64,000 nt of DNA from Giardia intestinalis. Lineage: Eukaryota. The position numbers were made by a program. Shown here piece after piece: positions 63,001 to 64,000 of this stretch. The stretch lies in NCBI GenBank assembly GCA_000002435.2, contig CM018793.1; one strand, 5' to 3'. The number at the start of each line of letters is the position of its first letter. Position 1 is the stretch's first letter.

Positions 63001-64000
63001 TGATCTTCTTCCATGCAATCGTCATCGAGAGACGGAAGTTCGGTCCTATAGGGTATGTTTGTAATCTGTGTAGTCGCAGTATGCCATTATTTTATAACGT
63101 GTATGTCATTATGTCAGTATGCCAGTGCGCTGGTGAGTTTCCTTTATTCAAATGTTGTGCAGTTGCTCTGTTCTATTCTATTCTGTTGGTTTTCGAGTAT
63201 GGTGACTCATTCTGAGACTCTTACTTTAGCCAAGACTGCGTCCGGATCGCAGATAATGCACCGGCTGCAGTTTCCTTGTTTATATATGCCTACCAATCTA
63301 TCTGCCAACTCAAAGGTATTGTTACGAAGACTTATAACGATGAATTGGGCGTTCTTCGTTCGCCCCTTGATATACTTAGCGATAATAGAAACGTTGCGAA
63401 AGTCTAGCGCCGCGTCTATCTCATCCATAACGTAAAGTGGCGTTGGTTTGTAGCAGTGCAATGCGAAAATGAGACTAAGGCTAGACAGAGTTTTTTCTCC
63501 CCCAGAGAGGTTGCATATTTGCTTCCAGGACTTTCTCGGAGGCATCACACTGAAGAGAACGCCGTCAAATGGATCAAACTGATTGATAAACTCCAGCTGC
63601 GCGTCTCCACCAAGTGTAAGCGTCTTATAAATGTCTCGCAAATAAGTGTTAATTAGGGTAAAAGCAGTGATGAACTCAGACGCCCGCTGGTCCCGCTTGG
63701 CATTCAGCTCCGCCTTCTTTGTATCATACGAAGCAGAAATGGATTGGAATTCAGCCTGGCGCTCAAATACAGCCTGAGCACGGGTGCGATACTCTATCAG
63801 AAGCGCTGTGCTGGTATCTAGATCAAGGCCTGTCTCCAAGGATTTAGCGGCTTTCTTGTCAACCTTGATACCTCCGTAGAGCTCCAATACCAAATCGGAG
63901 ACCTCTTGAGAATCCAGTTCTCGCTGTGGAAACATGCAGAGCTCTTGCACAGCATCGATGTTCTGCTGATTTGCTAGCACCTCTACTGACTGGGGATTGA

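What the first reader, a model, noticed from the sequence alone, without database searches (positions are those of the whole stretch)
63045..63206. The same dynein fragment ends at a GTATGTT donor with no acceptor before the convergent SMC4 gene, making a second, 5' split-intron half
Conserved dynein sequence (..ERRKFGPIG) stops at GG|GTATGTT (63053-63059), where WNIPYEF.. is expected. The downstream frame becomes nonsense (YVCNLCSRSMPLF...). No CTRAC-ACACAG acceptor exists in the 154 nt before the SMC4 stop at 63207. The fragment is therefore bounded by intron halves at both ends (phase-1 acceptor, phase-2 donor), as expected for an internal piece of a 3- or 4-piece split gene. The donor-proximal region carries duplicated CAGTATGCCA and GTATGTCA motifs that could serve as pairing or decoy sequences.
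Basis: partly seen in the sequence, partly recalled or inferred. Interest (0 to 1): 0.6.

Follow-up and report, generated by a model that had tools for sequence, protein, structure and literature searches.

The report
Known Giardia dynein split-intron 5' half

Summary
The window is Giardia intestinalis (lamblia) WB. The ORF at 60906-63215 is exactly XP_001708535.1. The real exon is 60640-63052. It starts after the acceptor CTAACACACAG (phase 1) and ends at GG|GTATGTT (63053-63059, phase 2), 25 positions into the 140-position AAA-lid domain. No acceptor lies between the donor and the convergent SMC4 gene.

The missing exon sits at another locus (L004). There ACTAACACACAG is followed by T-TGG-AAC-GTC-CCC..., giving G-WNVPYNF. 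Joining the two exons in silico reproduces residues 1344-2565 of the deposited 2565-aa outer-arm dynein beta protein exactly.

The intron halves pair. Window 63066-63088 forms a 21-bp helix with the 3' half, 13 bp of it perfect, and the first CAGTATGCCA copy is its core. This pairing is stronger than all 300 shuffles. The published 12-nt RNA-processing motif (TCCTTTATTCAA, 63140-63151) follows.

The split position is conserved in assemblage E, in G. muris (pieces on different chromosomes, helix sequence different) and in an unnamed GC-rich relative.

This is intron "DHCB2" of Kamikawa et al. 2011 and Roy et al. 2012.

The parts
60629..60639 (+). Branch-point/acceptor motif CTAACACACAG. It ends the 3' half of the first split intron (DHCB1) and bounds the same exon on its 5' side.
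   Evidence: It is the only exact match in the window. The exon starts at 60640 in phase 1. The junction codon G+CC gives Ala, reproducing ...QFDK-A-TEDKEE of BAJ33527.1.
60640..63052 (+). Middle exon of outer-arm dynein beta heavy chain. It covers the end of the stalk, AAA5, AAA6 and the start of the AAA lid (2413 nt, residues 1344-2148 of the mature protein).
   Evidence: Pfam finds MT, AAA_9, Dynein_heavy and the first 25 of 140 positions of AAA_lid_11. tblastn of the 2565-aa protein matches the window only at 60639-63056. The in-silico splice is exact.
60906..63215 (+). ORF as annotated in the reference genome (XP_001708535.1, 769 aa). Its boundaries are an ORF-calling artefact: it starts at an internal ATG and reads through the donor into 54 nonsense codons.
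   Evidence: The exact sequence is found in the protein collection under that name.
63053..63059 (+). 5' splice site GTATGTT of the second split intron (DHCB2), phase 2.
   Evidence: It is conserved at the same codon in P15 (GTATGTT), G. muris (GTATGTG), L012 (GTATGTA) and L011 (GTATGTT).
63053..63139 (+). 5' intron half as it would remain after cleavage at the processing motif (87 nt). The 3' end is inferred, not measured here.
   Evidence: Position of the motif. Published 3' RACE shows that 5' halves of the trans-spliced introns are cleaved at their motif (PMC3510501).
63066..63088 (+). Helix I strand (CTGTG-T-AGT-C-GCAGTATGCCATT). It pairs with AATGGCATACTGC-T-ACT-CACAG of the 3' half (L004 2839-2860): 21 bp in total, of which the core 63076-63088 is 13 bp perfect Watson-Crick.
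63101..63115 (+). Predicted second, weaker intermolecular helix. It pairs with the ATGGCAGCAAAAATGGCAGC repeat of the 3' half and is real only if that far-upstream part is transcribed.
   Evidence: Cofold result. Not independently supported.
63115..63124 (+). Second copy of CAGTATGCCA. It could pair with the same TGGCATACTG element in an alternative register.
   Evidence: The P15 copy is CAGTATGTCA, still pairable through G-U.
63140..63151 (+). 12-nt Giardia RNA 3'-end processing motif, TCCTTTATTCAA.
   Evidence: It matches the published consensus [T/A/C]C[C/A]TT[T/C][A/T/C][C/T/A]T[C/T/A]AA (PMC3510501). The equivalent motif follows the pairing region in P15 (TCCTTTACTCAA) and G. muris (TCCTTCACTTAA).
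63207..64000 (-). 3' end of the convergent SMC4 gene (stop codon at 63207-63209). It runs off the window.

Best explanation
Window 63053-~63139 is the 5' half of the second split spliceosomal intron ('splintron', DHCB2) of the Giardia intestinalis WB outer-arm dynein beta heavy-chain gene.

The proposed pathway is as follows.
1. The middle exon (60640-63052) is transcribed with this intron half. The transcript runs on towards or into the antisense of SMC4.
2. The transcript is cut at the 12-nt processing motif at 63140-63151.
3. The intron half anneals through a ~21-bp helix (63066-63088) to a short 3' intron half transcribed from a different locus. That half ends in ACTAACACACAG and is followed by the last exon.
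4. The helix brings the 5' splice site, the branch point and the 3' splice site to about 44 unpaired nt apart (13 nt on the donor side plus 31 nt on the acceptor side). This mimics a short cis intron.
5. The spliceosome joins GG to T, giving ...[12 protein letters not shown]... .

The same exon is joined at its 5' end to an upstream piece by an analogous event, so the mature mRNA encodes a 2565-aa motor polypeptide.

Shown here: the exon boundaries and phases, the location and phase of the partner exon, exact reconstruction of the deposited protein, the pairing and its significance, and conservation across lineages.

Taken from the literature: the existence of the spliced mRNA in cells, cleavage at the motif, and spliceosome dependence.

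Inferred: the order of cleavage and annealing, and the transcription start of the 3' half.
For: Identity. The ORF is exactly XP_001708535.1, Dynein heavy chain of G. lamblia ATCC 50803. The neighbouring fibrillarin is exactly XP_001708536.1.

Truncation. The fragment ends at position 25 of 140 of AAA_lid_11 and has no Dynein_C domain.

Partner exon. L004 2880-2891 carries ACTAACACACAG, and the exon starts at 2892 in the required phase. Its product has the rest of AAA_lid_11 plus Dynein_C.

In-silico splice. Window 60640-63052 joined to L004 2892-4146 translates to residues 1344-2565 of BAJ33527.1 with no mismatch.

Not in cis.
- The other pieces are absent from the 64-kb window.
- The partner lies in a different synteny block, FGGY kinase / Ribo_biogen_C / ankyrin, against fibrillarin / SMC4 here.
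- In the chromosome-level G. muris assembly the two pieces are on CM016929.1 and CM016925.1.

Pairing.
- A 13-bp perfect core lies within a 21-bp helix.
- Cofold ddG is -29.2 kcal/mol, against -15.0 +/- 3.5 for 300 dinucleotide shuffles (minimum -24.0).
- Non-cognate combinations give -8.9 to -17.2.

Covariation.
- P15 has a G-C to G-U change in the helix.
- G. muris keeps a 13-bp perfect helix built from an unrelated sequence (GTGTTCCGCTTGC; ddG -25.1 against -12.1 +/- 2.0).
- L011/L015 keep the same splice positions with yet another pairing sequence.

Processing motif. It is present at 63140-63151.

Literature.
- Two trans-spliced introns in dynein heavy chain beta have RNA-seq junction reads; DHCB2 has 94-294 reads in the six WB datasets (PMC5224939, Table 1).
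- The dynein is encoded in four genes, three of them trans-spliced (PMC5100056).
- The motif is found in, and cleaved at, all four trans-intron 5' halves known in 2012 (PMC3510501).
- Trans-spliced genes and motifs are conserved in G. muris (PMC7641422).
Against: Nothing contradicts it. The limits are these.
The spliced product is known here only through a deposited protein record and published read counts.
- The two primary papers (Kamikawa 2011 Curr Biol; Roy 2012 MBE) are not in the held library, so their exact pairing diagrams could not be compared with mine.
- The processing-motif pattern alone is not enriched in the window (2 matches against 3.3 expected). Its weight rests on position and conservation.
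- The transcription start of the 3' half is unknown, so predicted helix II may not exist in the RNA.
- Whole-length duplex energies do not discriminate cognate from non-cognate halves. Only cofold ddG and helix length do.
Confidence: 0.96

Rival explanations
1. The fragment is a separately translated polypeptide that simply ends at the read-through stop (63213-63215). The dynein motor would then be assembled from protein pieces without RNA joining, as proposed for the N-terminal quarter of this same dynein.
For: The reference annotation calls a 769-aa ORF that reads through the donor to a stop. The literature accepts protein-level assembly for the N-terminal part (PMC5100056).
Against: The read-through tails are unrelated between lineages: WB has YVCNLCSRS..., the G. 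muris-like L012 has YVVFRLPYVV..., and L011 has YVSHTQNLDR.... The GTATGT donor, in contrast, is fixed at the same codon position in all of them. The break falls inside a folded domain, at position 25 of 140 of AAA_lid_11. The partner exon has no start codon at its beginning and is preceded by a perfect branch/acceptor motif in the complementary phase. A deposited 2565-aa protein is contiguous across the junction. Published RNA-seq junction reads exist (PMC5224939).
Confidence: 0.02
2. It is an ordinary cis-spliced intron whose acceptor lies far downstream, or the apparent split is an assembly artefact.
For: The window ends 950 nt after the donor, so the window alone cannot exclude a distant acceptor.
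Against: The flank is occupied by SMC4 on the opposite strand in WB, P15, G. muris and L012. The partner exon lies in a different conserved gene neighbourhood. In G. muris it is on another chromosome-scale record. The same arrangement is recovered in many independent assemblies (24 contigs read for each piece).
Confidence: 0.01
3. It is a decaying pseudogene fragment of a dynein gene, and the GTATGTT is a chance match.
For: GTATGTT occurs 9 times in the window, about as often as chance predicts.
Against: There is an uninterrupted 804-codon frame with strong Pfam scores. It is 86% identical to G. muris and 68% to a more distant lineage, with the same ends. The exact splice reconstruction holds.
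Confidence: 0.01

Closest known systems
Giardia intestinalis outer-arm dynein beta split intron 2 ('DHCB2' splintron; Kamikawa et al. 2011 Curr Biol 21:311; Roy et al. 2012 Mol Biol Evol 29:43)
   Same: It is the same locus. The organism and ORF are identical (XP_001708535.1). The junction is the same ([12 protein letters not shown] in BAJ33527.1). It shares the GTATGT donor, the ACTAACACACAG branch/acceptor on the partner, the inter-half base pairing and the 12-nt processing motif.
   Different: Nothing substantive. I could not read the two primary papers, so I cannot say whether my helix (63066-63088 with L004 2839-2860) is drawn identically there.
The other Giardia split introns (Hsp90, dynein gamma, p68 helicase, and DHCB1 on the 5' side of this same exon)
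   Same: The architecture is the same: independent transcripts, canonical Giardia splice signals, complementary intron halves, and a processing motif after the 5' half (PMC3510501, PMC5224939, PMC8494341).
   Different: The pairing sequences are specific to each intron. The 5' half studied here pairs poorly with the DHCB1 3' half in this window (ddG -8.9 against -29.2), consistent with partner specificity.
Long structured cis introns of Giardia (e.g. Rpl7a)
   Same: An internal helix shortens the effective distance from donor to branch point and acceptor to about 35-45 nt (PMC6679479). Here 13 + 31 = 44 unpaired nt flank helix I.
   Different: In those introns the two helix strands are joined by a loop in one transcript. 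Here the loop is missing and the strands come from different loci.
Spliced-leader trans-splicing (kinetoplastids, nematodes) and trans-spliced group II introns (organelles)
   Same: Exons from separate transcripts are joined.
   Different: No common leader is involved, and both partners here are coding exons of one gene. The boundaries are spliceosomal (GTATGT...ACTAACACACAG), not group II. Rfam found no group II intron or other RNA family in the region at gathering threshold.

Membership tests
Giardia split spliceosomal intron (splintron), 5' half | A conserved coding sequence breaks off at the canonical Giardia 5' splice site GTATGT | tested here: met
   GG|GTATGTT at 63053-63059. The break is at position 25 of 140 of AAA_lid_11.
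Giardia split spliceosomal intron (splintron), 5' half | There is no acceptor or continuing exon in cis; the next exon lies at an unlinked locus | tested here: met
   No CTRACACACAG with up to 1 mismatch lies downstream. The other pieces are absent from the window. The partner is in a different synteny block and on a different chromosome record in G. muris.
Giardia split spliceosomal intron (splintron), 5' half | The partner exon is preceded by the fused branch-point/acceptor motif [A/C]CTRACACRCAG in the complementary codon phase | tested here: met
   L004 2880-2891 ACTAACACACAG|T TGG AAC.... GG+T gives Gly, then WNVPYNF. The motif is also found in P15, GS, G. muris, L015 and L016.
Giardia split spliceosomal intron (splintron), 5' half | Extensive, specific base pairing between the two intron halves | tested here: met
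   A 21-bp helix with a 13-bp perfect core. The ddG lies beyond all 300 shuffles and all non-cognate pairs. The helix is maintained with a different sequence in G. muris.
Giardia split spliceosomal intron (splintron), 5' half | The 12-nt RNA processing motif lies just downstream of the pairing region of the 5' half | tested here: met
   TCCTTTATTCAA at 63140-63151 matches the published consensus (PMC3510501). P15 and G. muris have equivalents. Cleavage itself was not tested here.
Giardia split spliceosomal intron (splintron), 5' half | A contiguous mature mRNA or protein spans the junction | tested here: met
   The in-silico splice equals residues 1344-2565 of the deposited protein BAJ33527.1. 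Junction reads are reported in PMC5224939, Table 1. No raw RNA data were examined here.
Giardia split spliceosomal intron (splintron), 5' half | Removal is catalysed by the spliceosome, producing a Y-branched intron | not testable with these tools
   This rests on the title and claims of Kamikawa et al. 2011 as cited in PMC10711314 and PMC5100056.
Trans-spliced group II intron | Group II boundaries and domain V/VI structure | tested here: not met
   The boundaries are spliceosomal. The Rfam gathering search of the window returned only a tRNA.
Outer-arm dynein beta heavy chain (DNAH9/11/17-type) | Closest homologues and domain order (stalk, AAA5, AAA6, lid, C-terminal domain) | tested here: met
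   The best named hits are axonemal DNAH9/11/17 and dynein beta. The partner carries AAA_lid_11 and Dynein_C. One classification paper names the gene OAD-alpha/DHC4 instead (PMC5100056), so the nomenclature differs between sources.

The most novel reading that the evidence does not exclude
The split and its trans-pairing may be older and more plastic than the published record shows. Two unnamed, GC-rich Giardia-like lineages from public read sets keep the same splice positions and phases. One of them (L011/L015, SRR31929897, 65% GC) has both halves. The other (L016, SRR14944325) is represented only by the acceptor and last exon. In L011/L015 the pairing sequence is entirely replaced and the gene neighbourhood differs. 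In addition, the duplicated CAGTATGCCA / GTATGYCATTAT elements in the WB 5' half, together with the ATGGCAGCAAAA repeats in the 3' half, might provide alternative or competing pairing registers that tune splicing efficiency.
Probability: 0.3. Interest if true: 0.3.

Novelty: already known. Interest (0 to 1): 0.15.

Why it matters
Giardia's split introns are one of the few cases where a nuclear protein-coding gene is routinely rebuilt from independently transcribed pieces by the spliceosome. They bear on how introns fragment and how genes can be scattered. That significance belongs to the 2011-2012 discoveries. For this scan the value is methodological: a reader with no tools correctly inferred a trans-spliced internal exon, its phases, the partner's signature and the pairing motif from raw sequence. 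A practical by-product is that the reference annotation of this ORF (internal ATG start, 54-codon nonsense tail overlapping SMC4) is wrong at both ends.

Tried and rejected
- Whole-length RNAduplex energies between 154-nt and 200-nt halves did not discriminate cognate from non-cognate pairs; all gave -66 to -100 kcal/mol. I replaced them with a helix search, cofold ddG and shuffles.
- The processing-motif pattern is not enriched in the window as a whole, so it is not used as statistical evidence.
- The primary papers and two reviews (PMC3181519, PMC5425688, DOIs of Roy 2012 and Kamikawa 2011) are not held.
- The upstream piece (P0131, XP_001706318.1) is not on record in the contig index. The 5' half of intron 1 therefore could not be fetched, and the DHCB1 pairing was not tested. 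The junction codon was checked only through the protein's read-through tail (QFDK|GML = G|GTATGTT...).
- The middle piece of assemblage B (GS) was not retrieved, so WB-to-GS covariation is known only for the 3' half, where helix I is identical to WB.
- Rfam found nothing at the locus.
- I considered and rejected three alternatives, set out under rival explanations: a separately translated polypeptide, a distant cis acceptor or misassembly, and a pseudogene.

Full report
**1. The observation**

Reading 60000-64000 and translating the frame of 60642-63215 gives an uninterrupted dynein sequence. It begins TEDKEEVIRQ... immediately after the motif CTAACACACAG (60629-60639). It runs to ...[15 protein letters not shown] and then turns into YVCNLCSRSMPLF... 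until a stop at 63213-63215.

The heptamer GTATGTT is at 63053-63059. Its first G is the third base of the last Gly codon, so the exon ends at 63052 in phase 2. At the other end the exon starts at 60640 in phase 1.

The acceptor consensus CTRACACACAG occurs exactly once in the 64-kb window, at 60629-60639. With one mismatch allowed there is still nothing downstream of the donor.

The minus-strand gene ending at 63207-63209 has an SMC_N domain. Its closest matches among solved structures are SMC4 chains (E 1e-64, against 3e-33 for SMC1).

Pfam places the dynein fragment at the end of the stalk, AAA5 (AAA_9) and AAA6 (Dynein_heavy), plus only positions 1-25 of the 140-position AAA_lid_11. The protein is therefore cut inside a domain.

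The duplicated CAGTATGCCA is real, at 63077-63086 and 63115-63124. So is a near-repeat, GTATGCCATTAT / GTATGTCATTAT.

**2. What and whose it is**

An exact-sequence look-up shows the 769-aa ORF 60906-63215 is XP_001708535.1, 'Dynein heavy chain [Giardia lamblia ATCC 50803]'. The adjacent fibrillarin ORF is XP_001708536.1. The window is thus Giardia intestinalis WB.

The same protein cluster contains four further relevant records:
- a 2565-aa 'outer-arm dynein beta [Giardia intestinalis]' (BAJ33527.1);
- a 1442-aa upstream piece (XP_001706318.1), whose annotated tail ...QFDK-GMLLG... is a read-through of G|GTATGTT;
- a 381-aa downstream piece (XP_001705465.1);
- G. muris records annotated as partial, with the same boundaries (TDEKDE...ERRKFGPIG, and WNVPYNF...).

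The full-length protein reads ...QFDK-A-TEDKEE... and ...[21 protein letters not shown].... It is contiguous across both ends of the window exon. By tblastn only residues 1344-2149 of it are encoded anywhere in the window.

**3. The partner**

Contigs encoding the 381-aa piece were fetched. In L004 the sequence upstream of the annotated ATG reads ...CATACTAACACACAG|T TGG AAC GTC CCC TAC AAC TTC AAC AAT GGC....

Joining window 60640-63052 to L004 2892-4146, with the single upstream G prefixed, translates without any mismatch to residues 1344-2565 of BAJ33527.1.

The partner lies between an FGGY-family kinase gene and a Ribo_biogen_C gene. This neighbourhood is unrelated to the fibrillarin / SMC4 setting of the window exon. 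In the chromosome-scale G. muris assembly the two pieces are on different records, CM016929.1 and CM016925.1. The joining is therefore in trans.

**4. How the halves find each other**

A helix search between the 154 nt after the donor and the 200 nt before the partner's acceptor gives a 13-bp perfect Watson-Crick helix. GCAGTATGCCATT (63076-63088) pairs with AATGGCATACTGC, which lies 41-53 nt upstream of the 3' splice site.

Cofolding extends this to 21 bp (63066-63088 with L004 2839-2860), with one bulge and one 1x1 mismatch. It also predicts a second, weaker helix at 63101-63115.

Statistics for the pairing are all:
- The cofold gain over the separately folded monomers is -29.2 kcal/mol.
- 300 dinucleotide shuffles of the 3' half give -15.0 +/- 3.5, with a minimum of -24.0.
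- The longest Watson-Crick run is 13, against a shuffle maximum of 11.
- The DHCB1 3' half that sits in this same window gives only -8.9.
- Cross-species combinations give -16 to -17.

The second copy, and GTATGTCATT, can pair with the same TGGCATACTG in alternative registers. Whether they do is unknown.

On either side of helix I, 13 nt (donor side) and 31 nt (acceptor side) remain unpaired, 44 nt in total. This agrees with the published statement that pairing in long cis and trans Giardia introns constrains the donor-acceptor distance to 35-45 nt (PMC6679479).

**5. The 3' end of the intron half**

TCCTTTATTCAA at 63140-63151 matches the 12-nt Giardia RNA-processing consensus.

Hudson et al. 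[quoted passage not shown] By RT-PCR and 3' RACE they showed that longer precursors are cut there.

The pattern alone is not enriched in this window (2 found, 3.3 expected). Its position is conserved, however: P15 has TCCTTTACTCAA 93 nt after the donor, and G. muris has TCCTTCACTTAA 34 nt after it. The G. muris genome paper reports the same motif in all of its trans-spliced genes (PMC7641422).

I therefore take the processed 5' half to be about 63053-63139. This is an inference.

**6. Conservation**

- P15 (assemblage E) has the same donor, helix and motif, with one G-C to G-U change in the helix.
- The GS 3' half has an identical helix I strand.
- G. muris keeps the donor at the same codon and the acceptor ACTAACACGCAG|C TGG AAT. 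Its helix is built from an unrelated sequence, GTGTTCCGCTTGC(TG) pairing with (CG)GCAAGCGGAACAC. The ddG is -25.1, against -12.1 +/- 2.0 for shuffles. This is covariation at the level of whole helices.
- A G. muris-like Logan contig (L012) has the same layout.
- A 65%-GC relative (L011 and L015, both from SRR31929897) has CGCTAACACCCAG|CC ACC GAG......FGAIG|GTATGTT, and GTGCTAACACGCAG|A TGG AAT GTT CCC, with yet another, more interrupted pairing. Its identity to WB is 68% in the middle exon and 78% in the last exon.
- L016 (SRR14944325) shows the acceptor CTAACACGCAG|C TGG AAC.

In contrast, the read-through 'tails' after the donor are unrelated between lineages. This argues against a translated C-terminus.

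**7. Comparison with what is known**

- Roy (PMC5224939, Table 1) counts RNA-seq junction reads for 'DHCB1' and 'DHCB2' in WB, P15 and GS. DHCB2 has 94-294 reads in the six WB datasets (SRR455165-SRR455172).
- Kollmar (PMC5100056) summarises that the gene is encoded in four genes on different chromosomes or supercontigs. [quoted passage not shown] In Spironucleus the three parts form one exon.

All defining features that can be tested by computation are met. Spliceosome dependence cannot be tested here.

**8. Verdict**

The feature is already known.

- explicit window coordinates for the helix and the processing motif;
- a shuffle-based significance value for the pairing;
- the observation that the split and its phases persist in further unnamed Giardia-like lineages with replaced pairing sequences;
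- the note that the reference ORF boundaries (60906-63215) are an ORF-calling artefact.

Noticed in passing
window 60906-63215 (+) and 63207-63215: The reference protein XP_001708535.1 starts at an internal ATG, 266 nt inside the true exon. It reads through the splice donor for 54 nonsense codons and overlaps the SMC4 stop by 9 nt. Both ends of the annotation are ORF-caller artefacts.
   Followed up: yes
window 60534-60639: Only 106 nt separate the fibrillarin start codon (minus strand, 60533) from the DHCB1 acceptor. The 3' half of the first split intron and its promoter must therefore fit into this A/T-rich divergent intergenic region (ttttttgtagttttttgaagtaaaagcaaaatccaaaaaataag...). Its pairing partner could not be fetched because P0131 is not on record.
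   Followed up: partly
window 5021-5032 (+): TCCTTTCATCAA is the only other match in the window to the 12-nt Giardia ncRNA 3'-end processing consensus. It could mark the end of an unannotated snoRNA or other ncRNA, or it could be chance (2 matches against 3.3 expected).
   Followed up: no
window 58937-59010 (+): A tRNA gene (Rfam RF00005, 64 bits) is the only Rfam family at gathering threshold in the whole window.
   Followed up: no
L009 3880-3919 (G. muris, CM016929.1): In G. muris the SMC4 gene as called ends only 38 nt after the dynein exon, and the processing motif comes 34 nt after the donor. The 5' intron half is very short there, and any longer precursor must run antisense into SMC4.
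   Followed up: partly
L011 (SRR31929897_113556) and L015 (SRR31929897_6245); L016 (SRR14944325_722476); L012 (SRR30592944_30273): These are unnamed Giardia-like organisms in public read sets; L011 is 65% GC and L012 is 58% GC. They carry the same dynein split at the same codon phases. L011 lacks the fibrillarin / SMC4 neighbourhood and has about 750 nt of non-coding sequence after the donor, including a CTGCTAACATCTAG element 82-95 nt into the intron half and a near-motif TCTTTTATTCAA.
   Followed up: partly
L004 2800-2860: The 3' intron half carries its own tandem repeat, ATGGCAGCAAAA x2, followed by ATGGCATACTGC. It mirrors the repeated TGCCA/TGTCA elements of the 5' half. A/T-rich initiator-like elements (AAATTTAAAATGG) sit directly at the start of the helix I strand, which suggests the 3' half RNA may be only about 55 nt long.
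   Followed up: no
window 63053-63058 with L004 2874-2879: Cofold pairs the 5' splice site GTATGT with ACATAC immediately upstream of the branch motif in WB and P15. This is not conserved in G. muris, so it is probably incidental.
   Followed up: partly
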